The notes: a model not told the origin generated them from the letters alone. Counted from the stretch's first letter, positions 24,187-61,672 are shown. The stretch is 64,000 nucleotides of DNA from an uncultured Methanosarcinales archaeon (GCA_964630685.1 CAZVVW010000001.1:30236-94235), one strand, 5' to 3'. Numbers and translations: made by a program.

Positions 24187-27100
24187 ATGAATAGTATGAA
24201 TCATTTGAAAACGGTAGCTATTTTTATGATTTGTTTAATTTTAACTTTGCCATTTTATTCTGCTAATGTTTTTGCTGCTGCTAATGTTATGAGTGCTAAG
24301 ACTTATGGGGGGAGTGGTGTTGAAAGATATAGGCAATCTGTAGATAACACTAGGTTTGAAGCTGTTGTTGGTGGGGAGCCTGTTGGAATTGAATATATTT
24401 ATCTTGAAAGTTTTAGTGGGGGATTTAAACAGCAATTTACTTCTTGTGTTGATGCAGATTTTGGATATAATTGTGTTAAAACTCTTGAGTTGGATACTCT
24501 GACTGGTGGGTTATATACTTATTATATTCGTTCTTATGATAATCCTGATGGGCAAGGCATTGCTGTGAGTACAATGATAACTGATATTATTGTTGATGAT
24601 TCTAAACCCATTGTTAATACCTTTAGTTCTAATTTTAATAATGTAGGATTAACTCAAGAAGTACGGCTGAATTTTGATGTTTCTGATGTTGCTGCTCAAG
24701 GATGTAGTGGGTTTGGAAGAGTTGAGTTATCTGTAGGGTCAAAAGATAATGTGGTTGAAACATTGCCTTTGAATGATGTTATTGGTTGTTCTTATTTGGG
24801 TAATCTTACTGTTGTGCCTGGACAACATATTGAAGAAGGAGCTATGAGGGTGATATATTATCTGAAAGTGTATGATAGATTTGATAATCCTTCTGATTCA
24901 AAATATTTACAAGTTAGTGTTGATTTAGAAGCTCCTAGTATTGTTACTAGTTCTTTTGAGATCGTTACTCAAGTTGGGGATGAACCAGTTTATTATGTTA
25001 AAAAAGGGGAGAGTACTCCTGTTCTTATTAAATTTTTAGTGGATGGTGATGTAGATTTAGTGAATGCTGATTTTTTAGACCTTAATCCAAATTATATTAG
25101 TTTGGTTTCTGGTTCTTGTCAGCAGATGGGTTATGAAAGATATAGGTGTAGCTGGAATGCTTTTATCAATGTTGGAGAAACTACTAATGCTCAAATAAAA
25201 AGTAGAGCTTATGATGATTCAGGAAATTTTGATGAAGCTGTTTTTCCATATACTGTTTTTGTGGATGATTCTTCTCCTGAGTTGAGTAGTTTAACTACAG
25301 GTCATAGTTATGATGATGTTATTTATGCAGGTAAATTTACTACTTATAATGCTTTGATTACTGAAAGCGGTGTGGGGTTGAATTTGAGTAAGGTTTATCT
25401 TGATTTGAGTGAGATTAATGGGCGTAGTAGTGTAAAGGCTGATAATTGTACTGGTGCTGGAACTACTTGGAATTGTTATTGGTATGATGTTGAAACCACA
25501 ACAGGCGATGGATATAAACAACTCGCTTTGACTGGTGAGGATGATAGTGGAAATGCTTTTGGGGAATTAGGAATATTAACTTATGCAGATAGCACTTTTC
25601 CTGAAGTTGTCAGCAAGAATTATACAAGTAGTAGTGGCTATTGTCCAACAACTGCAGATATGATTACTTTTGAGGTAGGGGTTATTGAAGCAGGTCCTGG
25701 ATTGGAATTTAGTGTTGATGTTTCGGATATAAGTACTGCTTCTGAAACTGTTGATGGAAGTTGTAGTTTGGTTGTTGATGAAGAAGAAGAAAGTGCAGAT
25801 GAATGGGAATGTACTGCTGTTGTTGGAGAAATTATTTCTGGCCATTTTGATGGGGAGATTGGATTTACATTAATTGATGGCTCTAATAATACTATTGAGG
25901 ATGTTATTGATATTGAGATTTGTTTGCTTGATGATGTTACTGTTGAGCCAAACTTTTTTGATTTAATTGAGGATCCTCCGGAAGCAGTTCCTTCTATTGT
26001 AAGCAGAAAAGGATTGAGTAAATATAATTATCCTGTTTTTGTATTTCCAAAATTACGTGCTAGTGGGCTTACAGAAATGCTGAATTTTGAGACATCTTGT
26101 GTTGGTGCAGAAGTTATTGATGTGTTAGGTGAAAGGAGTACAAATCCTACTTTTAGTTTAAGGTTAGACCAAAATGACAATACATCAGACATTGAAGAGA
26201 TTTTGATTAATTGTTCTTTTAGCATAAAATTAAGATCTGGTAACACTGTTTACCTTAATCCTGAAATAGAAGAGTTTGAGGTTCCCTTTACATTGTATGA
26301 TACTTCTTTTGGTGATGTAACAGAAGCTATGGCTGATAAAATTTATGGCGTTAAAGAGAGATTGATTGAATTGGATGATAATATAGCTACTTGGGATAAA
26401 GTAAATACTTTTTTGAAAGTTATTTCAACTATAACCAAAGCTTTGGTTAAGATTGCTGTTATGGCATCTATTTTACTTCCAATAATTTATGCTTTTGCAT
26501 GGGTTGTTTATGGATTTATTTATGCTGGTTGCTGTGTTGTTAGTTTGGGTAGTGGTTGCGTGGGAGCTTGTGACCCCCCTGCAACATTGAAAGGTAATGC
26601 AGTATGGCAAATAGTTGGCAATATTCTTTCAGGAATTTTTGTGTGGATTGAAAAATTTGTTTGGCCTTTAGGTATGGAAGATATGAATCCATGGAGAATT
26701 CTTTTTAAAATGGCAGTGATGCTTTATTCTTGTAAATTATGTCAGTATAATATAGCTGGTTTTGAACCTTATAAGAGTATACACACTGCTAGTGCTTGTA
26801 TGTGTTTACCTGCTATATTATATAATTGGAGAAAAGAAAAAGCAGTTAATTGTATACAATTGAGGTGTTTGCAAGATAGTGTTGAAAAAGGGTACCCTTC
26901 TTCTGTATGCGATCAAAGAAAAACACAACAACAATGTTTGTATGTTGATGGTGCCGCTTGGAGTGAAGTTGCGGTTAAAAAAGGATTTGGATATTGGATG
27001 GGCATTTTAGGTCAACTGATTTTAGGGTTGTTAGTTAACTTAGGCATACTTTTATTAGGTATCTCTTGGAAAGTTACATGTAAAACATTTTTAAATGGCA

Positions 27101-27348
27101 TAGTTAGGGATCTTAAAGATGTTTTATTAAATGGAGAAATAATTGCATGTGAACTTGCAGGTTCTGCAATAATGTTGACAGAATTAAATGGATTTAGTAC
27201 TAATTTATGGGACTGGGAAGATTATAATAATAAGTTGTATTTTGATAGTGATCCATGTGCAGGCCTTGATTGGTCTACTTCAAGTGGTGGTGGTGCAAGT
27301 GCTGATGCAGGAGACGATGCATTAGAATTGGAGGTGTCTTCATGGTAA
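24187..27348 (+). CDS. Giant secreted Cys-rich protein (1053 aa): Sec signal peptide, repeated beta-rich modules with NCT..W.CYW motifs, C-terminal Cys-rich domain with hydrophobic helices; paralogue of 36139..39513
   Basis: Signal MNSMNHLKTVAIFMICLILTLPFYSANVFAAANV; shared motifs with 36139 (DNCTGAGTTWNCYWYD vs ENCTQSGSDWDCYYDTD; CMCLPAIL…CDQRKTQQQC vs CGCVPAIV…CQRDKKVGTC). Confidence 0.6.
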   Translation: MNSMNHLKTVAIFMICLILTLPFYSANVFAAANVMSAKTYGGSGVERYRQSVDNTRFEAVVGGEPVGIEYIYLESFSGGFKQQFTSCVDADFGYNCVKTLELDTLTGGLYTYYIRSYDNPDGQGIAVSTMITDIIVDDSKPIVNTFSSNFNNVGLTQEVRLNFDVSDVAAQGCSGFGRVELSVGSKDNVVETLPLNDVIGCSYLGNLTVVPGQHIEEGAMRVIYYLKVYDRFDNPSDSKYLQVSVDLEAPSIVTSSFEIVTQVGDEPVYYVKKGESTPVLIKFLVDGDVDLVNADFLDLNPNYISLVSGSCQQMGYERYRCSWNAFINVGETTNAQIKSRAYDDSGNFDEAVFPYTVFVDDSSPELSSLTTGHSYDDVIYAGKFTTYNALITESGVGLNLSKVYLDLSEINGRSSVKADNCTGAGTTWNCYWYDVETTTGDGYKQLALTGEDDSGNAFGELGILTYADSTFPEVVSKNYTSSSGYCPTTADMITFEVGVIEAGPGLEFSVDVSDISTASETVDGSCSLVVDEEEESADEWECTAVVGEIISGHFDGEIGFTLIDGSNNTIEDVIDIEICLLDDVTVEPNFFDLIEDPPEAVPSIVSRKGLSKYNYPVFVFPKLRASGLTEMLNFETSCVGAEVIDVLGERSTNPTFSLRLDQNDNTSDIEEILINCSFSIKLRSGNTVYLNPEIEEFEVPFTLYDTSFGDVTEAMADKIYGVKERLIELDDNIATWDKVNTFLKVISTITKALVKIAVMASILLPIIYAFAWVVYGFIYAGCCVVSLGSGCVGACDPPATLKGNAVWQIVGNILSGIFVWIEKFVWPLGMEDMNPWRILFKMAVMLYSCKLCQYNIAGFEPYKSIHTASACMCLPAILYNWRKEKAVNCIQLRCLQDSVEKGYPSSVCDQRKTQQQCLYVDGAAWSEVAVKKGFGYWMGILGQLILGLLVNLGILLLGISWKVTCKTFLNGIVRDLKDVLLNGEIIACELAGSAIMLTELNGFSTNLWDWEDYNNKLYFDSDPCAGLDWSTSSGGGASADAGDDALELEVSSW

Positions 27349-27857
27349 AATCAAAATTAATATGGGTGAGTGGAATAGTTTTAGTTATTTTTTGTTGTTT
27401 ATCTGGAGAAATGATTGCTTGGCAATGGTTTCACCCTTCTGGAAGTCCTAAAACTGCCTGGTATGATGTTACAGATGATGAAGTTGAAAAATGTTCTAAA
27501 GGAATAGACGTTCCAGGAGTTATAACTGATGGTGGGTCACATGGAGATAGTAATTATATATATGAATTAACTTTTTCATTACAGGCGTCAGAAACAGAAC
27601 TCCATAATGTTAGTTTATTTGAAGTATCTTATTATATAGAACCTTTGGAAGGTAATTTAACTTTTGAGGTATTTTTATTAGGTTCTGGAATATCTACAAA
27701 TGTAACGGGTGAATTAGTATCAAAACCTAATGGTGGAAAAGTAGGTTATGAATTTATAGAAGATGAAAAAGGAATATACACAGAAGCATTGATTGATTAT
27801 TGGGGAGATTCAAGCGGAAGTTATATTGTTCCGGTGGTGAAAAATGAAGAAGAGTAA
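27342..27857 (+). CDS. Small secreted/N-anchored protein (171 aa)
   Basis: Signal/TM; overlaps neighbours (translational coupling). Confidence 0.4.
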   Translation: MVKSKLIWVSGIVLVIFCCLSGEMIAWQWFHPSGSPKTAWYDVTDDEVEKCSKGIDVPGVITDGGSHGDSNYIYELTFSLQASETELHNVSLFEVSYYIEPLEGNLTFEVFLLGSGISTNVTGELVSKPNGGKVGYEFIEDEKGIYTEALIDYWGDSSGSYIVPVVKNEEE

Positions 27858-28680
27858 AGATGTAAAACATTCAAAATTTAGAAAAAGTGATTTTTTTAAA
27901 ACATTGAAGAAGTGCAAGAAGATTCATTTTGTATTGTTATTTGATATTTTGGTTATATTGTTAATGATGATTCCATTATTTTTTTCAGGAGTGTATTTGA
28001 TGGGTTATATTAATAATAATCCAACTATGAAAAATGTGGTTGGACAATTAAACCAATTTGAAAATATGGATGTTACATCTCCAGAGAATTCTGAAATCAT
28101 AAAATCACTTATCTTACCTAATAAAGAAGTGTTTCTTAAATTAGTAATTACATTTTTGTTACTTTTTGTAATTTCTTTATTGCTGATGAATATTATATTT
28201 TCAATTATGAAGGGAACTTCGTGGAGTTTTGTGAAATATGGTGGGCTTAAAAAAAAGTTTGTCGTGAGTTTTTTTAAGAAGTCTTTTCTTTGGCTTTTTG
28301 TGTGGTTTTTTATTATTCTTTTACTTGCTACAGCTTTGGGGGGGATTAGCGGAATTATATTATTGCAAATATTAATGTTGTTCTATTTTTATTTAACTTT
28401 TTTTGTATTTTATCCTTTGCTTACATTAGATTATAAAATAGGTTTTAAAAAATTGTTTAAGAAAACTTTGAAATGTGCTATGAATTTTAGGAAATTTATT
28501 GTTCCATTTTTATGGTATATCTGTGCTTTAATATTGTTTATAGTTATTTTGGGATTGTTTTTTAAGATAAACATTATTTTAGGATATGGGGTATCTTTAT
28601 TATTTATGTTTTTGTATTTTGCTTTTCAGAAATATTATTTGTTAACGATTGTTGAAAAAATAAAGAAGAACTGTGATTGA
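27844..28680 (+). CDS. Polytopic membrane protein, family member 1 of 3 (paralogues at 51066 and 60779)
   Basis: Shared motifs: [KQ]Gx(2)WxFx(6)KK[FIY] and K[KT][LI]FxKT[LF]Kx(4)[KR][FH]x(2)P with the other two. Confidence 0.45.
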   Translation: MKKSKDVKHSKFRKSDFFKTLKKCKKIHFVLLFDILVILLMMIPLFFSGVYLMGYINNNPTMKNVVGQLNQFENMDVTSPENSEIIKSLILPNKEVFLKLVITFLLLFVISLLLMNIIFSIMKGTSWSFVKYGGLKKKFVVSFFKKSFLWLFVWFFIILLLATALGGISGIILLQILMLFYFYLTFFVFYPLLTLDYKIGFKKLFKKTLKCAMNFRKFIVPFLWYICALILFIVILGLFFKINIILGYGVSLLFMFLYFAFQKYYLLTIVEKIKKNCD

Positions 28681-28696
28681 TGTTATAATTAATAAA

Positions 28697-31003
28697 ATGT
28701 TAAGAAGTAAAAGAGGTCAAATAACGGTATTTATTTTGTTAGGGTTAGTTATATTAGGACTAGTTGTTGGATTTTTAGTGTTGAAGTCAAAAGTTACTGA
28801 AACTGAATTGAGTACTGGAGATGTTGTGGAAAAAACCCCTACAGATCTTAGACCTGTACATAATTTTGTTCATGAGTGTATGGAAAGGGTACTGATAGAT
28901 GGGCTTAAACGGGTTGGAGAACACGGCGGATATATTGAGCCTTTGAATGAAGAATTATCTGGCAAGAGTTTTGAAGTAGATTATTTTAATCCTACTGATT
29001 CTGATGGTGTTTCATTGTCTGGGGAAGATGAACTTTTTGTGCCTTATTGGTTTTATCAAACTCAACCAAATCCCTGTGTTTCGTGTACTGTTTCTACACA
29101 TAAACCATCTATTGAAAATATTGAAGAACAATTAGAGATTTATTTTAAAAGGGAATTTAATAATTGTGCAAAAGATTTTGTTATGTTCACAAAAAGGGGA
29201 TTTGAGATAGAAGAAAAGGGAGAACTTAAACCAGAAATTAGTGTTGCTGAAAAAAGTGTTAATTTTTTCCTTGAATATCCTCTTAAAGTTAAGAATAGGG
29301 GGAGTTCTACTTTAATTGAGCAGTTTTATGTTTCAGTACCTTTGAATTTTATGGATTTTTATAAACTTGCTGAAGATATTTATACTTATGAATCAGAATT
29401 TATGCCTTTGGATAAGTTTATAATTAATTTAATTAGTATGCATTCTGGTTTAAGCAATTATAAGTTGCCTCCTTTTTATGAGATAACTGAAGGTTATAAT
29501 TATATTATGTGGGTGAAACCAATTGTAGATAGACTTCTGAGGCATGTATTTTTATTAAATTTTCCTTATTTGAGGGTTAAAGGCACTTTAAATGAGCAAG
29601 AGATGTTACAGAATGCAGATGGTTATTTAGAGGGTGCATTTTTTAATGGTTCTATTTTAAATGTTAGTGGTGGATCTGGAGATTATGGTGAACTTGAGGC
29701 TGAATTTTTTTATGTTAATTGGCCCATGTTTTTTTCAATAAGACCTGGAGATGGAACAGTTTATAAACCAATAAGAACTGAACAAAGATCATTTTCTTTT
29801 ATTCAACCACATCAAGTGAATACTTACAAGTTTTTATATGATATTAGTGTTCCTATTTTAGTTAGAATAACTCAAAAAAATGCTTTGTTGGATGGGCCAT
29901 ACAGTTTTTGGTTTTCAATGGAAGTAACAATAAAAGATAATAAGAATTTATTGCAATGGTTTTCTGGTAATGGTACTGTAACTGCAGACCAAATAAATGA
30001 TACCATCAATGTTTCTGATTTGGGATTGATTGAAAAAACATTATTTTGTGAAGAGAATCAGTTGTTAAGTGGTAATGTAAATGTCACTGCTTATAGTGCT
30101 TATAATGGAACTCCTATTGAAGATGCAATTGTACGATTTGGGTGTGGTAGATATGGTTCTTGTAAATTGGGAAAAACAGATGCTAATGGTGTGTTGAGTA
30201 CTAAAATGCCTTTATGTAATGGAGGTTATGTGCTTGTTGAACCTCCAAGAGGGATGGAGAGTGTTTATTTTAGAAAAGCAGAACCATTAACAACTGAGAT
30301 TGGAGGTGATGGTTTTGTTGAAGTTTATTTAGACAGAGTTGCTGTAAAAAATATATCTTTTAAAATTCTAGAGATGTTGAGTGTTAATGATTGTTGCGTT
30401 GCTGGAAGAGATATTAATGATCATGAGCTGGTTATGCTTACTATTAAAAAAATGCTTGAGCCTGGAGAGATAGGGGAAGCCTTTACTCAGACATTTATTT
30501 ATGATCCTGAAGCAGACGAGCCAATGGCAATTAAAGAATTAAAATTAGTGCCTGGTGAGTATGATGTTAGTGCAACTTATTTTGATAATGATGGATTTGA
30601 GATAAGAAAATGGTGTAAACATATCTGTAAAGGATTTGGGTGTGGGCAGATAGAGGGGGCTGTTTTTCAAGGAGTACATCCAACAGATGCAAAACACGAT
30701 TGTTTAATAAGTCCAACTTGTCTTGTGTTGATGTCTCAATGGGTTCCAGATGATCCTATAGAAATTACTCCAGCACCACTTGGCGGTGTGATTATGAATA
30801 ATGAAACTGGTTATTGGGAACTAACCGCAAGTGATATTTATTCTTATCAAGATGATGTTGTTTTTAATATATTAAGAATGCCAACACCGACTTGTTTAGA
30901 TACTGATTGTGTGTTACCTGTTTGTGTAGGATTGGAAGAGATGGGTAAGACAATCAATTATTCTAAAGATTTTAGGAATGAGATTGAGCCGAGATTTATT
31001 TGA
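28697..31003 (+). CDS. Large protein with archaeal class III (type IV pilin-like) signal peptide (MLRSKRG|QITVFILLGLVILGLVVGFLVL), family member 1 of 3
   Basis: N-terminus matches the prepilin-peptidase motif [KR]G|Q + hydrophobic helix; paralogous to 33445 and 52187 (…RPVHNFV…GGYIEP… vs …RPVYNFI…GGWISV…). The ORF track's start at 28673 is probably upstream of the real ATG at 28697. Confidence 0.55.
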   Translation: MLRSKRGQITVFILLGLVILGLVVGFLVLKSKVTETELSTGDVVEKTPTDLRPVHNFVHECMERVLIDGLKRVGEHGGYIEPLNEELSGKSFEVDYFNPTDSDGVSLSGEDELFVPYWFYQTQPNPCVSCTVSTHKPSIENIEEQLEIYFKREFNNCAKDFVMFTKRGFEIEEKGELKPEISVAEKSVNFFLEYPLKVKNRGSSTLIEQFYVSVPLNFMDFYKLAEDIYTYESEFMPLDKFIINLISMHSGLSNYKLPPFYEITEGYNYIMWVKPIVDRLLRHVFLLNFPYLRVKGTLNEQEMLQNADGYLEGAFFNGSILNVSGGSGDYGELEAEFFYVNWPMFFSIRPGDGTVYKPIRTEQRSFSFIQPHQVNTYKFLYDISVPILVRITQKNALLDGPYSFWFSMEVTIKDNKNLLQWFSGNGTVTADQINDTINVSDLGLIEKTLFCEENQLLSGNVNVTAYSAYNGTPIEDAIVRFGCGRYGSCKLGKTDANGVLSTKMPLCNGGYVLVEPPRGMESVYFRKAEPLTTEIGGDGFVEVYLDRVAVKNISFKILEMLSVNDCCVAGRDINDHELVMLTIKKMLEPGEIGEAFTQTFIYDPEADEPMAIKELKLVPGEYDVSATYFDNDGFEIRKWCKHICKGFGCGQIEGAVFQGVHPTDAKHDCLISPTCLVLMSQWVPDDPIEITPAPLGGVIMNNETGYWELTASDIYSYQDDVVFNILRMPTPTCLDTDCVLPVCVGLEEMGKTINYSKDFRNEIEPRFI

Positions 31004-31007
31004 TTTA

Positions 31008-33006: not shown

Positions 33007-33022
33007 ATTAAATTAAATTAAT

Positions 33023-44085: not shown

Positions 44086-44086
44086 G

Positions 44087-51085: not shown

Positions 51086-51830
51086 TTTTATTAATTACCT
51101 TAAAAATGTTTTTAAGGTGTTTGGAAATAGTTTTAAATTAGATTTATCTTTTCTTTATAGTATCTTGTTAGATTTATTATTTTATCTCTCAATATTTTTT
51201 ACTTATAATGTATTATATAACATAATTATGGATAGGACATTCGAACTAATGAGTATGAGTGCAGTAGATTTAGGAATTGAACAAATAGGTATGATGGCTA
51301 AATCATTCATGCTGAAATTTTATTTGATGGTAGTTGTGGGAATAGTTTTGTTTATCTTTTTTTATGGAATATTTAAGTCATTAGTCTGGGCAATGACATT
51401 AAAATCAAAGATGAATAAAAAATACATGCAAAACTTTTCAATGTTGAGTTCTATAGGAATTATTTTTTGGGGATTAATAACTTATTTGATTATTGTAACC
51501 GTAACAATTGAAAACACTTTGATAATGTTATTTTTCTTTTTGTTTATCAATTATTTTACTAAAATACTTTTTACAGTATTTAGCCACCATAAATCAAACA
51601 TTAAAAAGAGTTTGAATAGCATGGTAGATATAGCTTTTAAAAAGTTTCACTTATTTATAATTCCTTATGTGTTAGAATTTGCAGTATTTTTAGTTTTATT
51701 TATAATTCTTGTAAATTTTAAATTTTTACCTTTAAGAACTTATTTAATTATAATCTTTTTTATATTTTTAATTTACTTTGCTTGGGCAAGAAAATACTTC
51801 TCAAGTGTGGTTAAAGGAATTATAAAATGA
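51066..51830 (+). CDS. Polytopic membrane protein, family member 2 of 3
   Basis: Motif sharing with 27844 and 60779; the true start may be a downstream ATG (~51228). Confidence 0.4.
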   Translation: MKVAGYNFINYLKNVFKVFGNSFKLDLSFLYSILLDLLFYLSIFFTYNVLYNIIMDRTFELMSMSAVDLGIEQIGMMAKSFMLKFYLMVVVGIVLFIFFYGIFKSLVWAMTLKSKMNKKYMQNFSMLSSIGIIFWGLITYLIIVTVTIENTLIMLFFFLFINYFTKILFTVFSHHKSNIKKSLNSMVDIAFKKFHLFIIPYVLEFAVFLVLFIILVNFKFLPLRTYLIIIFFIFLIYFAWARKYFSSVVKGIIK

Positions 51831-52090
51831 TATTATCAGCTATATTTGGACTTATTGGTGGAGTGACAAGAGCTTTTGTTGGATTATTGAAGTATTATAA
51901 TCTTAATAAAAGAGGTAAATTAAAACTTAGTTATATTCTTTTTACAGTGATTGCTTCTGGCTTCATAGGTGTTTTCTGCGGACTTTTAGTGTCTCAAAGC
52001 TATGTTCTTAGTATGTTGGGAGGATATGCTGGCACAGACTTAATAGAAGGGATATATAAAATTAGAAAACGGCAAGGAATTGTGATTTAG
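51827..52090 (+). CDS. Small 2-3 TM membrane protein (87 aa)
   Basis: ORF with hydrophobic helices; ATGA overlap. Confidence 0.3.
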   Translation: MILSAIFGLIGGVTRAFVGLLKYYNLNKRGKLKLSYILFTVIASGFIGVFCGLLVSQSYVLSMLGGYAGTDLIEGIYKIRKRQGIVI

Positions 52091-54172: not shown

Positions 54173-54179
54173 GATTAAG

Positions 54180-57100
54180 ATGGAAAGAAAACTAAAAACA
54201 GTACAAGTGATGGCAATAGTGATAATCCAATTAATGTTAATCACACCATTAGCTAGTGCTGTACTTATTCAAGGGGTGGATGTTGAGGTTAGTGGAAATT
54301 CAGCTGTTATCACTTGGACAACAACTGACCCAACTACTACCACAATTAATTATGGAGATACAACATTAAAGGAAAATAGTGTTTCTGATACTAATCTTTT
54401 AGAAGAACATACTATGGAGATAGTTGGATTGAGTCCTGAAACTAAATATTATTATGATATTGTTGCTGAAGATGCAAATAGTAGTAGTACAGAATATTCT
54501 AGTAATTTTATTACAGCAGATATAACTTCACCACCAAAAGTGAGTGGAATTCTAAATGGTACAATTACTGAAACTTCTATTGAATTATTATGGGCACATG
54601 TTAATGTTGTTGATTTTAATCATTATAACATTTTTAGAGATGGAGTTAATATTCATAATGCGACTTCCATTAGTCATGTTGATGATGGATTGATTGCTGG
54701 AATGAGTTATACTTATACTATCTCTGCAGTTGATGACAGCGGAAATATGGGTGAGAGTTCAGACCCCTTTACAGTTTCTACATTGGCTCCAGATATTACT
54801 GGTCCGGCTGTGTTTAATATAAGTATTTTAGCACTTACAGATTCTACAGCTGTGATTGGATGGAATACAGATGAAGAGAGCAATTCAATTATTAATTATG
54901 GTACTTCAGAGTCCTCTTTGGGGTTGAGTGTAACTGATCTTGCGTTAGTCATAGAACATTCTTTGACGATGATAGGGCTGACTAAAGATATTAGATATGT
55001 GTATGTTGTGCAATCTTGCGATGAAGCAGGTAATTGCGATAATTCAGAACCACTTGCGTTCACAGCAGGAGCAGATTACACTCCCCCATTTATTAATGCC
55101 ACAATTCCTGAATATTACAATGGATTGGAAATAGATTTTGATGTTTTTACAGAAAATCATAGTGATGTGCTTGTTTATGTGAATGATATATACAGGCGTT
55201 CTGGAAATAGTGGTTCAGAAGGGAAGGTTTCTTTTAGAAATGTTGATCTAGATAGTGTTTTAGGCACTAATGTTATTAGGATTGAAGCTGTTGATCAAAT
55301 TGGAAATGAAGCTGTTCAAAATTATAATTTGGAACTAGATTTTGTTGCTCCTGTTATGGATATAACCACAAATGTCACTAATCTTACAACTGAAAGGAGT
55401 ATTACAATACAAGGAAATGTTGATGAGCTGAGTACAATTAGATTCTTTTTAGAATTAGATCCATTTGATACAACACCGCCTGAAAAAGTGACTGAATTGG
55501 TTGCTGTTAATGTTGAAACTAATAATGTTGAATTAGAGTGGAAAAAAAGTATAGCAGAAGATTTTAATTATTATTTAATTTATAGAGAAGATATAGGACT
55601 TATTGCAACCTCTACAAGGGAAAATTATAAAGATGAAAATGTTAATTCTGGAATAACTTATAATTATTGGGTGATTGCTGTTGATAATGATTGTATTAAA
55701 GGAGGGGGTTCTGATGTTATAGCTGTTAGAACTCAAGAGGGTGAAGAGGCAATTGTTGAGTTGGATGTAGAACAAGTAGTTGCAGAATGTGATATCACAT
55801 CACCAGAAGTTGAATTAGAAACAAGTGGATATTTTAGTGAAAAAATAAATCTAAGAAAAGGGATTAATAAAATAAAAGTAGAAGCTAGTGATAAAGCTGG
55901 TAATGCTGTTGTTTGGGAAGTGCAAACAATTCATGATACTGATGCTCCAAAGTTTGTTTCTGATAATATTGATGCATTAAATCCTAGTTATAGTGAATAT
56001 GTCACAATAAAAGGGCAAGTGGATGAACCATCAACTGTTTATGTCTATCTAAATGAACGTGTTGTTCCAGATCATTTTACTCAAACTGATAATCAAGGTA
56101 ATTTTGCTGTCGAAGTTCAATTAAGAAAAGACGAAGAGATTGGAAGGGCAGGTGAATTAAAGTGGAGAAATGAATTAACTTTAATGGCTGTGGATATTGC
56201 TGGTTTAAACGGCACAATAGATGGAAGAATAGATTTTTCTAGATGTGGTGGCGGAAACATGGATTGGATTGTTAACACAAGAGATTTATATCCAGATTCA
56301 CTTGTTCCAAGACTTTTATTAGAAGGGATGGGACAATTTACTTTAGGTGTTGATTTAGAATGGCAAGGTGCTGGGGCTGAACCAGAAAGATTTAATGCAA
56401 TACCCAGAATTGAAAAATTAGATTTAAGTATAGAAGAAAAAGTAAATTATGATGAAGAATATTTAAGATCTAGAGTGTTGATGCCAGACAGAAAAGATAG
56501 AACTTTGACTGTGCTTGTTGATATAAATGCATTACCTGACCCAACTCCTGCTGGAGAAAATTGGACTTCTTATGATAAAGAAGATAATATAAGCAAAATG
56601 CATGCAGGTGAATGTTTTGGAAGTTCTACTTTATCTAATGTTGGAGTAGATGTTATGGAAGGTGTTGGATGTATAAAGGCACCCCTTGAACTTATTTTGA
56701 AATATAAATGCGAAGAGTATGATAGTCATGGATATTTGAGAAATGAAACTTGTATACAAAAAGAGTGCATTTTTGTTGATATGCTTATTGAACCAAGAAT
56801 AGATCCTAGTAAGATGTTTAATAAAGATTTATTAGGTGCAATGGTTGGATTTTTGAATGGTTCTATTGAGGCAATAAATGCCGTTTTGGAATCTTTAGAG
56901 ACTGTTTCTAGGATTACAATGGCTGGATGTGCTGTTGGTTGGGCTTTATTGACTGTTAAGAAAGTATCTGAGTTTAAAGCTTGTTATGTTTCAACTAGTT
57001 TTAAAGATTTAATTGCTAATTTACAATTAGAAGAAATTTGCGAAAGTTGTAATGTGGTAGATGGTTCTGTGATTTGTCCAATAAGTGATGATGATATTAA

Positions 57101-60100
57101 AAATAAATGTGAGAGTTGTATGGGTGCTAAATTAAATACACTAAAATTTGAAAGGGGAATGCATGCTGTGTGTGATAGGGTTTTCTGTCCAAGTGTGCCA
57201 AGTTATGAAAGTTATATTGAAAAGAATACTTCTAAAGTTTGTGAAAATCATGTTCCTAATTATAATGTGGATTTAATTAAATCTAAAGAGAGTAAAGTAT
57301 TTTCAAATACAGATTGTGATATGTGTGAGATATTACCAGAAGGAACATGGTGTAAAGATCATAAAAGTGAATGTTGTGCTGTTGATTATATGAATCAGTG
57401 GAGTACTGGTGCTTTGTTTATGGATGAAATGAAAGAATCTGCTTGTATTGCAGCAGGAAATGCTGCAGATGTTAAAGAAGGTCTTGGATGTAATAAATGG
57501 GGAGATTTCATAAGGGGCGCTAGAAATTTTAAACTGTGTAAGGGTGGAATCACAGAAGAGATAGCAGTGGGTAGTGGAGATTATACTTTAATTCTTAATA
57601 AAACAGGGGAAGGAGATTTAGCTATTTGGGGAATGCATCTCGCAAGAGATTTTGAATATACTATGACAATTGGAGGGATTCAAGAAACTAAAAGCGAAAG
57701 AATAATGATTCGTGATTTGAGTGGTTTATTGAGGGAGATAGAAGAAATTAAATGTGAAGGAATTAAAAAAGGAGATATAAAATACAATAGTTTGGATTGG
57801 CCGACATATGAAGTTGGAGGAAGTATTGAGAGAACTGAAGTTGAAAGGCGAGCTGGAACCGATTCTGCAATAATAACTAATATAACCACACTCCCAGAAC
57901 AACAAAAAGTGCCAATACCGGTGGTGAATTTTATTTGTGAAGATTTTGAGGTAAAAGAAGATAATATTATTGATCCTGCTTCTGGTTTATTGAAAGCTAC
58001 ACAGGCTGTTTGTTTACCTGGTGTAAATTCATATCTTAAACAAACAAAACAGATAATGGAATTGTTCCAAGGATGTTTTAACACTATTCTGGTTACTGGT
58101 GATGGTAGTTCTGGAATGTGTCAGCATTTGGTTAGTCAATATATTTGTGATTTAATTTATTATGCTATAAGTTGTGTTAAACAATTAGTACCTCAAGGAG
58201 ATGGAATCAGAGCAGAAGGTGGAATAGTGGGCTTTGGAAAACATATATTGAGTTCTGTTAAAAATGTGCAAAGTGGTATTTCTGGAAGATATGGTAATTC
58301 AAGAAATTTCCAGGCATTTTTTACAGGTAAAAAATTAGTGCATAGTGTTTGTATGGCTATGTTTGGTGCCGATATTGATTTTAATTTTGATAGTTTACTG
58401 GATATGGGTGTGGATATTCCTACTGATCCATTTATTATGGCTAGCGGAACAAGACGTTTTGTTGGTTATGATGTGACAACTGGTTGGAGTTCACATCTTT
58501 ATAATATTGCTCCTGTTATTATTGCAGGGGAAGATATGAAATATTGGATAGAATTAGTTTGTTCTAATGATTTTAGCTGTGAGCCCTCTGATGGTTTTGA
58601 AGGTGGTAAATGTGATTGTGCTGAAGAGGCTTTGAATTGTCGTGTTGATGGATGTACAAGAGGAGTTACTAGAATATTTGGAAGTGGAAGATTAGCTAAA
58701 GGTGAAGTGCTTAATACAGAAGAGTTTATTTCTGTTGAACCGCCACATAGAGATTCAAAATATAGATTTGATAAAGTTAGGATAAGATATGAATCTATGC
58801 TTGGACAAGATGCAAGGGCTGGAGAAGAACATAGTAGAAGAGGAGATACTAAAGAATTTAATATAAGACCTATAGGTGGAAATTCACCAGTACATTGTTA
58901 TTTTAGGTGGGGTGCAACAGATCCTGGATTTAGATGTGATTTTTATATGGATGAAAGAGGAACAGCTGTTTTTACTAATCCTCGTGGAGAATCTGTTAAA
59001 AATATTTCAGATGTTTATTATCTTGGTGAAAGAATAATGAATAATTCTCAACTCAGTTATGTGTTTAAAACAGAAGGAAAAGATGATAATGGAGACCCAA
59101 TTCCGATTTATTTGGTTGGAGAGTTGAAGAACCAAAATGGGGCTGTTGTACAGCAAGAATCTATACCAATAACAGAAGAAGGTTATCATGATTATAATAT
59201 GAATAATGATGCTTTTAATGGTGCTTTTGTTGTAAGGCCAGAGTTTTTTACACAAACAGCAAGTGTAGGAACTGGAAGTACTACTAATGCTGATGGCACT
59301 ATTTCTGGAAGTGGATGTGATGGAATTGAGAGTAGATTTGGAGTTGATAGTTTATCTTGTGATGGCATTTCAGGAACAGATGTGAGGGTTGTTTATTATG
59401 AGGGGAGTGATATTTGGAAAGTTTATTCTAATATTGCAGGATCACCTTTAACACCTACTGGAAAAATAGAAAATTATATGTGTGCACCTTATGTTGATTC
59501 AGAAAAAATAGTAAAATGTAATTTAACAGATAGTTCTGGAGATGTTACAGAGAGTATAACTATCTATATACCTACTTGGGAGAAAACAGTTGGAGATTAT
59601 ATTAAAATAATTTCTAAATCTAATAGTTCTAGTGGTGGAAATGTTCCTGGTGCTCCAGCTATTCCTGGTGCGTCTAGTGGAAATGTGGATTGTACAACTA
59701 CTGCTGTTCCTTGGACATTAACTCTTAGTTTGTATCCTTCAGATGATTTTGGAGATATTGATATGGGCACTCCTTTTGAATTGAATGAAAAAGAACAAAA
59801 AATTACTTTTAATATTAAAGCTAAATGTATTAATGAGGGGGAAGAAGTTCCTATTACTTCTCCACCTATTGGAGGAGATATAAGTGGAGGTAATGGTGAT
59901 ACCCCTGGCGGTTCTAATGGTGATGGCAGTGGTTCTGGAAGTTCTAATGGTGATGGTGAAACTACTGAAGAGTCTGGAAATTGTACTTTTAGATCCTGTG
60001 AAGGAGTAAATACTGTTGGATGTAATTGTGGCGGAAATTTAACAACAAATAATACAAAATATTGTTTTGAAGGAGAACATAATACTGGAAATCATATTTT

Positions 60101-60782
60101 TGGGAATAGGGAAGAATGTTTATGTGGGAATTATGAAGTTGATAGTGGAGAGATATGTGATTTTGATGATGAGGGAAATGTAATTAATAATTCAAATTTA
60201 AATATTCAAATGCCTGATAGTGGACAACTTAATGGCGGATATACAAATATATTTTTTAATGGAGTTTCTTCTCGTTTATTTTTTGTTAGAACTATTAATG
60301 CTAAAGTATCTGGGTGGTGTGATGATTATAGCTATTTATATAGCAAGAATGAAATTAATAATATAAATGAAGATGTATCTAATTTAATACTTTCAGAGGA
60401 TAATTGTATTGAAGGAAATTTATTGAATAATTCAAGAAATTTTTGTAAGAATCAATGTACAGAATATTGGCCTGCAATTGCTGTAAGGGATAGCACAGGA
60501 AATATTGGGGGTGGAGTTATATTTCATCCTTATGGATTAAAAATGAATAAAACTAACCCATTAAATGAACAATATGAATTAGGTATTAAAATGTGGGATA
60601 AAAATGAATGGAAGTATGAATCAGATATTGAGTTTGAAAACAGATATAAAAAAACATTTAATTTTAATACTCCCTCTACTAAGTCTGGAGAAGAATATAT
60701 TTGTGAGTGGCACAATTCAGATGATGGTACATGTACTGCAAGCAATACAGCAGAAGAATATTACTTTGTTTATAATAAATGA
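54180..60782 (+). CDS. Giant secreted protein (~2200 aa): signal peptide, >=3 fibronectin type III-like domains, long Cys-rich C-terminal region with hydrophobic helices
   Basis: Fn3-like repeats (…VITWTTTDPTTTTINYGDT…TKYYYDIVAEDANS; …VIGWNTDEESNSIINYGTS…IRYVYVVQSCD). The ORF track's TTG start at 54165 is replaced by ATG at 54180. Confidence 0.55.
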   Translation: MERKLKTVQVMAIVIIQLMLITPLASAVLIQGVDVEVSGNSAVITWTTTDPTTTTINYGDTTLKENSVSDTNLLEEHTMEIVGLSPETKYYYDIVAEDANSSSTEYSSNFITADITSPPKVSGILNGTITETSIELLWAHVNVVDFNHYNIFRDGVNIHNATSISHVDDGLIAGMSYTYTISAVDDSGNMGESSDPFTVSTLAPDITGPAVFNISILALTDSTAVIGWNTDEESNSIINYGTSESSLGLSVTDLALVIEHSLTMIGLTKDIRYVYVVQSCDEAGNCDNSEPLAFTAGADYTPPFINATIPEYYNGLEIDFDVFTENHSDVLVYVNDIYRRSGNSGSEGKVSFRNVDLDSVLGTNVIRIEAVDQIGNEAVQNYNLELDFVAPVMDITTNVTNLTTERSITIQGNVDELSTIRFFLELDPFDTTPPEKVTELVAVNVETNNVELEWKKSIAEDFNYYLIYREDIGLIATSTRENYKDENVNSGITYNYWVIAVDNDCIKGGGSDVIAVRTQEGEEAIVELDVEQVVAECDITSPEVELETSGYFSEKINLRKGINKIKVEASDKAGNAVVWEVQTIHDTDAPKFVSDNIDALNPSYSEYVTIKGQVDEPSTVYVYLNERVVPDHFTQTDNQGNFAVEVQLRKDEEIGRAGELKWRNELTLMAVDIAGLNGTIDGRIDFSRCGGGNMDWIVNTRDLYPDSLVPRLLLEGMGQFTLGVDLEWQGAGAEPERFNAIPRIEKLDLSIEEKVNYDEEYLRSRVLMPDRKDRTLTVLVDINALPDPTPAGENWTSYDKEDNISKMHAGECFGSSTLSNVGVDVMEGVGCIKAPLELILKYKCEEYDSHGYLRNETCIQKECIFVDMLIEPRIDPSKMFNKDLLGAMVGFLNGSIEAINAVLESLETVSRITMAGCAVGWALLTVKKVSEFKACYVSTSFKDLIANLQLEEICESCNVVDGSVICPISDDDIKNKCESCMGAKLNTLKFERGMHAVCDRVFCPSVPSYESYIEKNTSKVCENHVPNYNVDLIKSKESKVFSNTDCDMCEILPEGTWCKDHKSECCAVDYMNQWSTGALFMDEMKESACIAAGNAADVKEGLGCNKWGDFIRGARNFKLCKGGITEEIAVGSGDYTLILNKTGEGDLAIWGMHLARDFEYTMTIGGIQETKSERIMIRDLSGLLREIEEIKCEGIKKGDIKYNSLDWPTYEVGGSIERTEVERRAGTDSAIITNITTLPEQQKVPIPVVNFICEDFEVKEDNIIDPASGLLKATQAVCLPGVNSYLKQTKQIMELFQGCFNTILVTGDGSSGMCQHLVSQYICDLIYYAISCVKQLVPQGDGIRAEGGIVGFGKHILSSVKNVQSGISGRYGNSRNFQAFFTGKKLVHSVCMAMFGADIDFNFDSLLDMGVDIPTDPFIMASGTRRFVGYDVTTGWSSHLYNIAPVIIAGEDMKYWIELVCSNDFSCEPSDGFEGGKCDCAEEALNCRVDGCTRGVTRIFGSGRLAKGEVLNTEEFISVEPPHRDSKYRFDKVRIRYESMLGQDARAGEEHSRRGDTKEFNIRPIGGNSPVHCYFRWGATDPGFRCDFYMDERGTAVFTNPRGESVKNISDVYYLGERIMNNSQLSYVFKTEGKDDNGDPIPIYLVGELKNQNGAVVQQESIPITEEGYHDYNMNNDAFNGAFVVRPEFFTQTASVGTGSTTNADGTISGSGCDGIESRFGVDSLSCDGISGTDVRVVYYEGSDIWKVYSNIAGSPLTPTGKIENYMCAPYVDSEKIVKCNLTDSSGDVTESITIYIPTWEKTVGDYIKIISKSNSSSGGNVPGAPAIPGASSGNVDCTTTAVPWTLTLSLYPSDDFGDIDMGTPFELNEKEQKITFNIKAKCINEGEEVPITSPPIGGDISGGNGDTPGGSNGDGSGSGSSNGDGETTEESGNCTFRSCEGVNTVGCNCGGNLTTNNTKYCFEGEHNTGNHIFGNREECLCGNYEVDSGEICDFDDEGNVINNSNLNIQMPDSGQLNGGYTNIFFNGVSSRLFFVRTINAKVSGWCDDYSYLYSKNEINNINEDVSNLILSEDNCIEGNLLNNSRNFCKNQCTEYWPAIAVRDSTGNIGGGVIFHPYGLKMNKTNPLNEQYELGIKMWDKNEWKYESDIEFENRYKKTFNFNTPSTKSGEEYICEWHNSDDGTCTASNTAEEYYFVYNK

Positions 60783-61672
60783 ACCAACTAAAATCTTCAA
60801 GAAGAGCAATCTCTTCAAGGTCTATGAAAGGTCAGAACACTTTTCGTATACTAAAAAAAGCGTTCTTTGAAACGTTTAAGAAAATAAAACAGAAACCATT
60901 TTACTTAGCTCTGCCTATGTTTATGGATTTACTGCACTTAATAGTGTTTAGTGGAGTGCTCGGATGGGCTCAATTGAAAGCTATGGAGCATATACAAGGG
61001 TTACAAGGTTTATTAGAGAGTTCTTCAGCTATTGTTGGTGATGCACTTAATGAAACTACTATGACACTTATGTTAGGGCACCAAAATGAACTTATGACTT
61101 TACAGAGTGCTTTAATTAAATTAGCTTATCTGCTTTTATTGAGTGCTTGTATATTATGGTTATTATTTCAAGGGCAGAGTTGGAGATTTGCATCTAATCT
61201 GACTGGAAAAAAGATAAAATACTTTAAGTTCTTTGGAAGATTCACTATTCTGAGTGCTGTTTGGCTTATTTTAGCTAGTGTAGTTAGTGTATTTCTTTTC
61301 AAAGTGTTATTTAGTATGCAGATGGAGATACATCAGGTGAAATATGGTATTGAAACACTAACTTCTGTTGTGTTTTATGCTTTGGTAGCTTATTTTATGT
61401 TTATTAGTTATGCTTTAGTGCCTAAATATACACTTAAGACAATATTCCAGAAAACATTTAAGATTGGAACTAAACATTTTTTACCTTTAATCACAATGTT
61501 TTTCATGTTAACTGTTGGTTTTTTTATTATAGATTTAATATTAAAAGCTGTAGGTACAGTAAACATCACAGCGATGATGATTGTTGGGTTTATCTTGTTG
61601 TTACCTTACCTAACTTGGATTAGGTTATACATACTTTTAGTTGTAGAGAAATTAGAAAAACAAAAAGAATAA
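60779..61672 (+). CDS. Polytopic membrane protein, family member 3 of 3; last gene of the cluster
   Basis: Motif sharing with 27844 and 51066; ATGA overlap with the giant gene. Confidence 0.45.
   Translation: MNQLKSSRRAISSRSMKGQNTFRILKKAFFETFKKIKQKPFYLALPMFMDLLHLIVFSGVLGWAQLKAMEHIQGLQGLLESSSAIVGDALNETTMTLMLGHQNELMTLQSALIKLAYLLLLSACILWLLFQGQSWRFASNLTGKKIKYFKFFGRFTILSAVWLILASVVSVFLFKVLFSMQMEIHQVKYGIETLTSVVFYALVAYFMFISYALVPKYTLKTIFQKTFKIGTKHFLPLITMFFMLTVGFFIIDLILKAVGTVNITAMMIVGFILLLPYLTWIRLYILLVVEKLEKQKE

What the first reader, a model, noticed from the sequence alone, without database searches (positions are those of the whole stretch)
24187..61672. ~37 kb unidirectional, translationally coupled cluster of giant secreted Cys-rich proteins, pilin-like proteins and conserved membrane proteins: candidate novel surface/adhesion system
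From 24187 to 61672 almost every gene is on the + strand. Stops and starts overlap or abut throughout (27342/27348, 27844/27857, 39513/39515, 40240/40252, 44085/44087, ATGA at 47548, 49313, 51827, 60779), indicating operon-like co-translation. The content is modular and repeated: giant secreted Cys-rich proteins (1053, 1124, 1281, ~1154, 592, 590 and ~2200 aa); three paralogous proteins with archaeal type IV pilin-like N-termini; and three paralogous polytopic membrane proteins. None of the large proteins matches a family I can name beyond generic Fn3, CarboxypepD_reg or SH3b modules. No ATPase or prepilin peptidase lies in the window, so this is not a canonical archaellum or pilus locus. In a small-genome archaeon that probably attaches to a host or to surfaces, this looks like a dedicated and undescribed surface-appendage or host-interaction apparatus.
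Basis: partly seen in the sequence, partly recalled or inferred. Interest (0 to 1): 0.9.

Follow-up and report, generated by a model that had tools for sequence, protein, structure and literature searches.

The report
Conserved archaeal surface-complex gene cluster
A 37-kb run of back-to-back genes in a small-genome (Woesearchaeota-type) archaeon encodes membrane-anchored pilin-like proteins, giant secreted proteins and small membrane proteins, none with any annotation. The same genes recur in the same order in dozens of related genomes, which makes the cluster a strong candidate for the unknown machinery these cells use to hold on to surfaces or partner cells.

Summary
Genes from 24187 to 61672 are almost all on the + strand, and 12 of 18 junctions overlap or abut. 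The products are secreted Cys-rich giants, three pilin-like paralogues and three 6-TM paralogues with no Pfam, NCBIfam or PDB relatives.

The cluster is not a lineage-specific oddity. It is a rearranged, duplicated copy of a locus conserved across Woesearchaeota, often next to MetRS. The usual order is PL-A (pilin-like, ~720-800 aa), GA (~1050 aa), X, TM, PL-B, GB.
- PL-A is followed by GA in 57 of 70 cases and PL-B by GB in 16 of 16, never crosswise.
- The GA signature domain has 1383 representative clusters in metagenomes; every source name seen for the family (12 checked) is 'hypothetical protein'.
- AlphaFold (pLDDT 85) shows GA as about six Ig-like domains plus a Cys-rich all-helical domain with no specific structural relative.
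- X proteins share a ~160-aa C-terminal domain that g02 and g13 also carry.
- g09-g12 are lineage-specific inserts.
- A type IV pilus ATPase and platform are linked in only 1 of 78 loci.

Best reading (confidence 0.4): membrane-anchored, pilin-like anchors display Ig-string arms for adhesion. This is inferred, not shown. Novelty: new variant of a known kind. Interest 0.7.

The parts
24187..27348 (+). g01, GA-type giant (1053 aa). It has a signal-like N-terminus, about six Ig-like (Big_13-like) domains, and a Cys-rich all-helical C-terminal domain (residues ~705-1020).
   Evidence: AF2 model, mean pLDDT 85.2. Paralogue of g08. The family has 1383 representatives.
27342..27857 (+). g02 (171 aa, one N-terminal hydrophobic segment), a stand-alone copy of the X-CTD domain (s02 family).
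   Evidence: 12 relatives at the same GA-to-TM position. hhalign of s02 against X-CTD gives probability 84%, E 8e-6.
27844..28680 (+). g03, a 6-TM membrane protein (TM family).
   Evidence: Profile search unites g03, g14, g17 and 47 locus proteins. No invariant residue and no Pfam match.
28673..31003 (+). g04, PL-A (776 aa). It has a class-III-type N-terminus (KRG|QITVF plus a hydrophobic helix), a conserved ~370-aa core, and transthyretin-like beta domains.
31008..32552 (-). g05 (514 aa), a bitopic protein. It has a Q-rich N-terminus, one TM segment, then a domain with a faint Ig-like Pfam match and a Cys-rich region. Its family sits next to PL-A in related loci.
   Evidence: Iterative profile search gathers 30 sequences (28 locus proteins from 28 loci, plus g05 and window ORF 6940-9759), upstream of or divergent from PL-A.
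33445..35073 (+). g06, the N-terminal part of a split PL-A (KKA|QVTLF).
   Evidence: blastp against g04, E 2e-55, residues 3-540 against 13-551. The same split occurs in the nearest relative L007.
35131..36015 (+). g07, the C-terminal part of the split PL-A, with its own hydrophobic N-terminus.
   Evidence: blastp against g04 residues 551-656.
36139..39513 (+). g08, the second GA-type giant (1124 aa).
   Evidence: Full-length paralogue of g01. The GA C-terminal profile hits residues 729-1090 at E 5e-65.
39515..40252 (+). g09 (245 aa, one TM segment, His/Pro/Glu-rich N-terminus). Lineage-specific.
   Evidence: No relative in 84 loci. 1-nt gap to g08 and 13-nt overlap with g10.
40240..44085 (+). 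g10 (1281 aa, 61 Cys), a lineage-specific secreted Cys-rich protein.
   Evidence: It has 0 NxS/T sequons against 11.3 expected.
44069..47551 (+). g11 (ORF from TTG 44069; likely start ATG 44087). It carries three CarboxypepD_reg stretches plus PEGA and a Cys-rich C-terminal half. Lineage-specific.
   Evidence: Pfam CarboxypepD_reg E 2e-26, PEGA E 5e-8. No relative in the loci.
47548..49326 (+). g12 (592 aa, 32 Cys), with nested near-identical internal repeats. Lineage-specific.
49313..51085 (+). g13 (590 aa, 27 Cys), the window's X-type protein. It has a variable N-terminal part and an X-CTD/s02-like domain at residues ~447-562, and sits directly upstream of TM as in the canonical order.
   Evidence: s02 HMM E 1.7e-4. 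X-CTD hhalign E 5.6e-4.
51066..51830 (+). g14, a 6-TM membrane protein (TM family).
51827..52090 (+). 87-aa hydrophobic small ORF with an ATGA overlap with g14.
   Evidence: Conservation was not tested.
52187..54172 (+). g15, PL-B (661 aa, KRG|QVSQF).
   Evidence: Paralogue of g04 and g06. PL-B is followed by GB in 16 of 16 loci.
54165..60782 (+). g16, the GB-type giant (2205 aa). It has three fn3 stretches, Ig-like modules, the GA-like Cys-rich core motif at residues 1269-1335, and a long C-terminal extension.
   Evidence: Pfam. hhalign against the GA C-terminal domain gives probability 76%, E 2e-5. GB orthologues hit the GA C-terminal HMM.
60779..61672 (+). g17, a 6-TM membrane protein (TM family), with an ATGA overlap with g16.

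Best explanation
The cluster is the Woesearchaeal version of a conserved, chromosomally fixed cell-surface assembly locus built from cognate anchor and arm pairs.

Shown:
- Two subfamilies of large pilin-like proteins (PL-A, PL-B) are each encoded next to their own giant partner (GA, GB).
- A protein carrying a conserved ~160-aa C-terminal domain (X-CTD: g02, g13) and a 6-TM protein without conserved residues sit between them.
- GA is a string of about six Ig-like domains ending in a Cys-rich helical domain.

Inferred mechanism:
1. PL proteins are exported, and their K[KR][GA]|Q[IV]T N-terminus is cut by the cell's PibD/FlaK-type prepilin peptidase, which is encoded elsewhere.
2. PL proteins then stay in the cytoplasmic membrane through the conserved hydrophobic helix. 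This resembles the non-filament class-III substrates of Sulfolobus rather than long pili.
3. GA and GB are Sec-secreted and have no obligatory membrane span. They are held at the surface by docking their most conserved part, the disulfide-rich helical domain, onto the conserved core of the cognate PL, with X-CTD and the 6-TM protein as assembly or anchoring factors.
4. The Ig-like strings, and the lineage-specific Cys-rich proteins inserted in this window (g09-g12), point outward and provide adhesion to surfaces or partner cells.
For: - Synteny: 78 loci share the order PL-A, GA, X, TM, PL-B, GB, often next to MetRS (25 MetRS hits in 24 loci).
- Cognate pairing: PL-A is followed by GA in 57 of 70 cases and PL-B by GB in 16 of 16, with no crosswise case. 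36 of 43 PL genes with at least 4 kb on both sides have GA or GB within two genes.
- Pilin-type N-terminus: a FlaFind-like motif plus hydrophobic stretch occurs in 98 of 104 PL proteins against 11 of 855 other ORFs. This segment is the most conserved part of PL, 0.48 against 0.21-0.29 column identity.
- GA structure: mean pLDDT 85, Ig-like domains at residues 33-704 and an all-alpha domain at 712-1017.
- GA C-terminal domain: 50 of 115 relatives have no strongly hydrophobic 19-mer there, and the median is 15 Cys. This argues for an extracellular disulfide-rich domain rather than a membrane anchor.
- GA conservation: the most conserved stretch is the motif at residues 865-925, 0.45 against 0.25 for the Ig domains. 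GB shares this motif.
- X-CTD is shared by 29 locus proteins, and by g02 and g13.
- PibD is known to process non-pilin substrate-binding proteins (PMC4858521, read).
- A pilus ATPase and platform lie within 10 kb in only 1 of 78 loci.
Against: - No direct evidence for expression, cleavage, localisation or any PL-GA contact.
- Signal peptides and topology were judged by hydropathy only.
- The PL model is poor (pLDDT 56) and gave no informative fold match.
- No known pilin Pfam model matches PL, in 0 of 64 N-termini. There were only 3 weak TadE/G-like hits at E >= 0.004.
- g01 itself has four strongly hydrophobic helices in its C-terminal domain, so in this organism GA could be membrane-embedded on its own.
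- The role assigned to the 6-TM protein is a guess.
- Adhesion is inferred only from domain types that are generic (Ig-like strings also build S-layers).
Confidence: 0.4

Rival explanations
1. Pilus-tip complex. PL-A and PL-B are modular minor pilins incorporated at the tip of a type IV-like fibre. The fibre is built by an ATPase, platform and peptidase encoded elsewhere in the genome. GA and GB are the tip-bound adhesins.
For: - The class-III-type N-terminus is nearly invariant.
- PL carries F rather than E at position +5, while a canonical small pilin of the same lineage (L025, KKAQAAMEF) has E at +5. From my own knowledge, cap pseudopilins such as GspK also lack Glu5.
- One relative (L025) has a T2SSE ATPase, two T2SSF platform genes and a small pilin 4-10 kb from the cluster.
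- Archaeal type IV filament loci often carry large Ig-rich adhesin-like proteins (bioRxiv 10.64898/2026.04.22.720090).
- Modular pilins with bulky modules are known (PMC8179133).
Against: - Machinery is linked in only 1 of 78 loci, with none in the window or within 10 kb beyond it.
- No small major pilin lies in the window.
- The 6-TM family shows no T2SSF signal in 43 members.
- The PL model shows no recognisable pilin fold match, although the model is weak.
Confidence: 0.25
2. Envelope lattice. PL (membrane stalk) plus GA/GB (canopy) form a two-component S-layer-like coat, analogous to SlaB/SlaA.
For: - The locus is vertically inherited, core-like and fixed next to housekeeping genes.
- Ig-string proteins give Foldseek matches to the SbsB and Sap S-layer proteins.
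Against: - The window has a better S-layer candidate at 6940-9759. It has a signal peptide, 19 NxS/T sequons (12.3 expected), a Thr/Pro-rich linker and a C-terminal TM segment.
- Two different pairs plus variable inserts are not expected for a lattice.
- There is no S-layer Pfam domain.
- The fold matches have TM-scores of 0.1-0.2 and are generic.
Confidence: 0.12
3. Membrane-active contact device. The Cys-rich helical domain of GA/GB (a 73-residue helix plus hydrophobic helices in g01) inserts into or remodels a partner cell's membrane. This could be pore or bridge formation, with the Ig string as a spacer.
For: - A long helix (residues 712-784) and hydrophobic helices at 752-795 and 939-957 in g01.
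Against: - 50 of 115 relatives lack any strongly hydrophobic segment in the domain.
- There is no sequence relative among solved structures.
Confidence: 0.08
4. No joint function. The block is a neighbourhood of unrelated secreted and membrane proteins, or a mobile or viral island.
For: - The core proteins have no annotation.
- g09-g12 are lineage-specific.
- A toxin-antitoxin-like ORF pair sits inside the block.
Against: - Order and cognate pairing are conserved at 20-30% protein identity across 78 loci.
- Junctions overlap.
- There is no PHROG match and no relative in 2.9 million viral contigs.
- The flanks are housekeeping genes.
Confidence: 0.05

Closest known systems
Archaeal type IV filament (TFF) loci with large Ig-rich adhesin-like proteins (Makarova et al. 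2016, PMC4858521; bioRxiv 10.64898/2026.04.22.720090)
   Same: Both have proteins with class-III-type N-termini encoded beside very large secreted Ig-fold proteins and small membrane proteins, with many conserved cysteines.
   Different: No ATPase, TadC/T2SSF platform or peptidase is linked here (1 of 78 loci). No small major pilin is present. PL, GA, X-CTD and TM match none of the Pfam or NCBIfam models tested. The pilin-like proteins are 600-1000 aa.
Modular type IV pilins, such as Streptococcus sanguinis PilB (PMC8179133), and the cap pseudopilin GspK (own knowledge)
   Same: Both combine a pilin-type N-terminal helix with a bulky functional module. PL lacks Glu at +5, as GspK does.
   Different: These are bacterial, much smaller, and shown to be in filaments. 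PL has no detectable sequence or fold similarity to them.
Non-filament class-III-signal-peptide substrates of PibD (substrate-binding proteins of Sulfolobales and Haloferax; PMC4858521)
   Same: Both are large globular extracellular proteins with prepilin-type N-termini that are not classical pilins.
   Different: Those are solute-binding proteins linked to ABC transporters. PL has no such domain and is paired with giant Ig-string proteins.
Two-component S-layer SlaA/SlaB of Sulfolobales (PDB 8qox)
   Same: Both pair a membrane-anchored stalk protein with a large multi-domain partner encoded next to it.
Ig-string surface fibres such as Aureispira GhpA (9flw, 9flp), cadherins and bacterial Big_13 adhesins
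   Same: GA residues 33-704 fold as tandem Ig-like domains with DxxGN and DxxxP motifs. Foldseek E values reach 1e-11, and the GA profile picks up Big_13-containing proteins.
   Different: The similarity is at the level of single domains only (TM-score 0.1-0.2). The Cys-rich helical C-terminal domain that defines GA is absent from all of them.

Membership tests
Archaeal type IV pilin-like (class III signal peptide) proteins | N-terminal [KRDE][GA][ALIFQMVED][ILMVTAS]x3 motif followed by a ~20-residue hydrophobic stretch | tested here: met
   98 of 104 PL proteins against 11 of 855 other ORFs. g04 and g06 pass. g15 deviates at one position, KRGQVSQF.
Archaeal type IV pilin-like (class III signal peptide) proteins | Match to a curated pilin or class-III N-terminal profile | tested here: not met
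   No pilin-type Pfam or NCBIfam family was reported for g04, g06 or g15. The 64 PL N-termini gave only 3 weak TadE/G-like hits at E >= 0.004.
Archaeal type IV pilin-like (class III signal peptide) proteins | Cleavage by a PibD/FlaK/EppA prepilin peptidase | not testable with these tools
   No peptidase gene lies in the window or within 10 kb beyond it. This needs whole-genome data and biochemistry.
Archaeal type IV pilin-like (class III signal peptide) proteins | Pilin fold: a long N-terminal helix packed on a beta-sheet | tested here: inconclusive
Type IV filament system (pilus or archaellum locus) | Secretion ATPase (T2SSE) and platform protein (T2SSF) in the locus | tested here: not met
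   None in the window or its flanks. Present near the cluster only in L025 of 78 loci. The TM family gave 0 of 43 T2SSF matches.
Archaeosortase/exosortase system | Polytopic enzyme with invariant Cys/Arg/His, and substrates with PGF-CTERM-type tails | tested here: not met
   The TM family has no invariant or nearly invariant residue and no Exosortase Pfam hit. The giants' C-termini are acidic or Cys-rich, not TM-plus-basic tails.
Archaeal S-layer proteins | Known S-layer domain families or full-length homology to a characterised S-layer protein | tested here: not met
   There is no such Pfam, NCBIfam or PDB sequence hit. Only generic Ig-string fold matches appeared.
Archaeal S-layer proteins | Forms a 2-D lattice covering the cell, with very high abundance | not testable with these tools
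   Needs cryo-ET or proteomics.
Viral or mobile element | Phage or virus protein families, presence on viral contigs, integrase or tRNA borders | tested here: not met
   PHROGs gave 0 hits for the 10 cluster proteins scanned (g01-g05, g09, g12, g13, g15, g17). Viral contigs gave 0 relatives. The window has no tRNA. Housekeeping synteny is conserved.

The most novel reading that the evidence does not exclude
The locus encodes a Woesearchaeota-wide cell-cell contact machine that works without a dedicated ATPase. In this reading the pilin-like anchors position GA and GB so that their disulfide-rich, long-helix C-terminal domain engages or opens the membrane of a partner cell. That would make it the molecular basis of attachment or cytoplasmic bridging in the largest uncultured DPANN lineage, built entirely from protein families with no known relatives.
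Probability: 0.1. Interest if true: 0.9.

Novelty: new variant of a known kind. Interest (0 to 1): 0.7.

Why it matters
From my own knowledge, Woesearchaeota are among the most widespread DPANN archaea, and how they contact surfaces or hosts is unknown at the molecular level.

This locus offers a concrete gene set that is conserved across the lineages sampled here: at least five new protein families with fixed order and cognate pairing. It can be targeted in metatranscriptomes and metaproteomes, by structure prediction of complexes, and by cryo-ET. It also suggests that prepilin-type N-termini are used in archaea to anchor very large surface modules away from any pilus operon. Finally, it defines a new Cys-rich helical domain (1383 sequence clusters) that no database names.

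Tried and rejected
- Word-seeded homologue searches returned only 5-7 true relatives even with broad alignments. The third search was wasted. The exhaustive HMMER scan and the GTDB scan showed the families are large.
- Archaeosortase idea for the 6-TM proteins: rejected. There are no conserved residues and no Pfam hit.
- T2SSF platform idea for the 6-TM proteins: rejected.
- PDB sequence searches with PL, GA C-terminal and TM profiles hit only designed proteins.
- X-CTD fused to the C-terminus of GB: not found.
- X-CTD in g10, g11 or g12: not found.
- Virus or mobile element: rejected.
- Linked pilus machinery: found only in L025.
- Literature searches found no description of this locus. The library is incomplete, so this is absence of evidence only.

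Full report
**What is in the window.** The window is low-GC (about 31%) and carries archaeal housekeeping genes. By reading the translations I identify a proteasome beta subunit, a beta-CASP/KH nuclease, a RuBisCO-like protein, a ribonucleotide reductase and MetRS (Pfam labels).

The closest genome in GTDB is 'Candidatus Woesearchaeota archaeon BS150m-G63', at 75-90% protein identity over the matched pieces. Woesearchaeota belong to the DPANN/Nanobdellati archaea.

- Of 18 same-strand junctions between 24187 and 61672, 10 overlap by 4-20 nt and 2 leave a 1-nt gap.
- The large products all begin with a hydrophobic signal-like segment and have 2.6-5.4% Cys.
- Pfam and NCBIfam recognise only generic beta-sandwich modules: fn3, Glucodextran_B and Big_13 in g16, and CarboxypepD_reg and PEGA in g11. 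They recognise nothing in the other proteins.
- PDB sequence searches are empty apart from fn3 matches.
- No secretion ATPase, platform protein or prepilin peptidase was found in the window or in the 10 kb beyond either end.

Four corrections apply. One conserved gene (g05, 31008-32552) is on the minus strand. Two small toxin-antitoxin-like ORFs sit at 32773-33196. The second pilin-like gene is split into g06 and g07, which together equal g04, and the same split is present in the nearest relative. An 87-aa membrane ORF at 51827-52090 explains the 'ATGA at 51827'.

**Paralogy and modules.**
- g01 and g08 are full-length paralogues, here called GA.
- g04, g06+g07 and g15 are paralogues, here called PL (E 2e-55 to 3e-20).
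- g03, g14 and g17 belong to one 6-TM family, here called TM. This is seen only with profiles.
- g16 (GB) shares the core motif of the GA C-terminal domain. hhalign gives probability 76%, E 2e-5, at g16 residues 1269-1335, and GB orthologues hit the GA C-terminal HMM at 1e-7 to 1e-5.

- The 80 best are almost all labelled Woesearchaeota, Nanoarchaeota or Nanoarchaeia.
- Some are labelled 'uncultured Methanosarcinales', but these share the same synteny, so I suspect a labelling problem.
- I called ORFs in the 78 loci and classified them with the window proteins.
- The recurrent order is [MetRS] - PL-A (~720-800 aa) - GA (~1050 aa) - X (456-1679 aa) - TM (~270 aa, 6-7 TM) - PL-B (~620-690 aa) - GB (1500-1700+ aa).
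- A second arrangement is GA - small s02 protein - TM - PL-A, with a divergent g05-like gene.
- MetRS is directly upstream in many loci: 25 MetRS hits were found in 24 loci. Further housekeeping neighbours seen in the window are also conserved, namely a 274-aa DegT-like protein, a Zn-ribbon protein and ThrRS. The locus is therefore an old, vertically inherited chromosomal feature.

PL-A is followed by GA in 57 of 70 cases and PL-B by GB in 16 of 16, never crosswise. 36 of 43 PL genes with at least 4 kb of flank on both sides have GA or GB within two genes. Independent metagenome contigs show the same thing (L001, L003).

The window combines both arrangements around g05: g01-g02-g03-g04 | g05 | g06/g07-g08-...-g13-g14-g15-g16-g17. 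Loci L015, L016, L021 and L007/L062 do the same.

**A fifth family: X-CTD.** The proteins between GA and TM vary greatly in length, but they share a conserved C-terminal domain of about 160 aa (29 locus proteins).
- The small s02 family, which includes g02, is homologous to this domain (hhalign probability 84%, E 8e-6).
- g13, the gene just upstream of g14 (TM), hits the s02 HMM at residues 447-562 (E 1.7e-4).
- The unit GA - X(CTD) - TM is therefore present twice in the window.
- By contrast g09, g10, g11 and g12 have no relative in any of the 84 loci. I read them as lineage-specific insertions into the variable slot.
- The minus-strand g05 belongs to a bitopic family found beside PL-A. The iterative profile gathered 30 sequences: 28 locus proteins from 28 loci, plus g05 and window ORF 6940-9759.

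**Size and annotation of the families.** An exhaustive HMMER scan of 1.84 billion representative proteins with the GA C-terminal profile gave 1383 hits at E <= 1e-3 and 307 at E <= 1e-30. Nearly all are about 1000-1100 aa with the domain at roughly residues 690-1040. Every source name seen for the family (12 checked) is 'hypothetical protein'. No paper found in the searchable library describes the locus.

**GA structure.** With a 68-sequence alignment, AlphaFold2 gives g01 a mean pLDDT of 85.2.
- Residues 33-704 form about six Ig-like sandwiches. They carry conserved Cys pairs and DxxGN and DxxxP motifs, and the GA profile picks up Big_13-containing proteins.
- Residues 712-1017 form an all-helical domain that begins with a 73-residue helix.
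- Across 115 full-length relatives, 50 have no strongly hydrophobic 19-mer in this domain. The median is 15 Cys, and 96% have an odd Cys count. This fits an extracellular, disulfide-rich domain better than a membrane anchor. However, g01 itself has four strongly hydrophobic helices there.
- The most conserved stretch of GA is the motif at residues 865-925, with 0.45 column identity against 0.25 for the Ig part.

**PL structure and N-terminus.** PL could be modelled only with 9 sequences (pLDDT 56).
- The model shows an N-terminal helix (residues 13-47), a second helix (57-83), an alpha/beta core and transthyretin-like beta domains.
- The PL N-terminus K[KR][GA]Q[IV]T[VL]FI[IV]xG is nearly invariant.
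- It satisfies the FlaFind-type pattern in 98 of 104 PL proteins against 11 of 855 other ORFs.
- It is the most conserved part of the protein, at 0.48 column identity.
- No curated pilin profile matches it.
- It carries F, not E, at position +5, unlike a canonical small pilin of the same lineage in L025.

**The 6-TM family.** It has no invariant or nearly invariant residue and no Pfam match in 43 members. It is therefore unlikely to be an enzyme such as an archaeosortase, or a T2SSF platform.

**How it most likely works.** Three things are shown: conserved order, cognate PL-giant pairing, and domain architecture. The rest is inferred.
- PL proteins are exported, processed at the prepilin-type site by a peptidase encoded elsewhere, and retained through their conserved hydrophobic helix.
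- GA and GB are secreted and held by docking their conserved helical domain on the cognate PL, with X-CTD and TM as assembly or anchoring partners.
- The less conserved Ig strings, and the lineage-specific Cys-rich proteins, face outward as adhesive arms.

I prefer a membrane-anchored, non-filament assembly (0.4) over a pilus-tip complex (0.25). Pilus machinery is linked in only 1 of 78 loci, and PibD is known to process non-pilin substrates (PMC4858521). The tip-complex reading remains serious.

An S-layer-like coat (0.12) is less likely. The window has a more typical S-layer candidate at 6940-9759, which is sequon-rich and has a Thr/Pro linker and a C-terminal TM segment.

A membrane-active role for the helical domain (0.08) is the most exciting reading, but it rests on generic fold matches.

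A chance neighbourhood or a mobile element (0.05) is contradicted by synteny, by the absence of PHROG and viral-contig matches, and by housekeeping flanks.

**Novelty and interest.** The kind of thing is known: an archaeal surface locus using prepilin-type N-termini and giant Ig-rich proteins. Every core family here is unnamed. The locus is uncoupled from pilus machinery. It has a fixed two-pair architecture and a new Cys-rich helical domain. I rate it a new variant of a known kind, with interest 0.7. It is a concrete and testable candidate for the attachment apparatus of a major uncultured archaeal lineage, but no function has been demonstrated.

Noticed in passing
window 32773-33006 and 33023-33196 (+): Two small adjacent ORFs (77 and 57 aa) lie between g05 and g06 and look like a toxin-antitoxin pair. 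The second resembles a truncated RelE/YoeB-type toxin by eye. The nearest relative (L007) has four different small ORFs at this spot.
   Followed up: no
window 6940-9759 (+): A 939-aa protein has a signal peptide, 19 NxS/T sequons (12.3 expected), only 2 Cys, a Thr/Pro-rich linker and a C-terminal TM anchor. Pfam gives Wzt_C and Ig-like hits. It is a more typical S-layer or glycoprotein candidate than anything in the cluster.
   Followed up: partly
window 47658-48666 (inside g12): Nested direct DNA repeats in an A-B-B'-A' order. 47658-47856 matches 48468-48666 at 95%, and 47860-48150 matches 48172-48462 at 99%. They duplicate two Cys-rich protein modules. This could be a recent duplication or an assembly effect.
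   Followed up: partly
window 40240-44085 (g10) and 44087-47551 (g11): g10 has no N-x-S/T sequon in 1281 aa (11.3 expected from composition), and g11 has 5 (13.7 expected). GA, GB and PL are at or above expectation. The strong sequon avoidance is unexplained.
   Followed up: no
L025:1-5590 (minus strand), upstream of its MetRS-PL-GA cluster: A complete small type IV pilus set is present: a T2SSE ATPase, two T2SSF platform genes and a canonical small pilin (KKAQAAMEFLMTYGW). It shows that this lineage has pilus machinery, but it is near the cluster in only 1 of 78 loci.
   Followed up: partly
GA family C-terminal domain (g01 residues ~690-1053 and 115 relatives): 96% of relatives have an odd number of cysteines in this domain (median 15). 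This hints at one unpaired Cys available for an intermolecular disulfide.
   Followed up: no
GA family N-terminus (g01 residues 1-30): The signal-peptide region is more conserved than the Ig domains (0.355 against 0.249 column identity). It has a nearly invariant Pro (P22) and a consensus LPxYxA motif, which is unusual for an ordinary Sec signal peptide.
   Followed up: no
L008, L009, L016, L025, L026 and other loci: Many GTDB records titled 'uncultured Methanosarcinales archaeon' carry the same MetRS-PL-GA synteny as records titled Woesearchaeota. Their organism label is probably a placeholder or an error.
   Followed up: no
window 1-64000: GC skew is strongly positive (+0.25 to +0.45) wherever genes are on the + strand. 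It falls to about zero or below at 10-18 kb, where genes are on the minus strand. So G is enriched on the coding strand throughout. No tRNA or Rfam family occurs in 64 kb.
   Followed up: no
window 11377-12876 (-): By reading the translation, this ORF looks like a form III RuBisCO large subunit with a long Lys/Gln-rich N-terminal extension. No tool was run on it.
   Followed up: no
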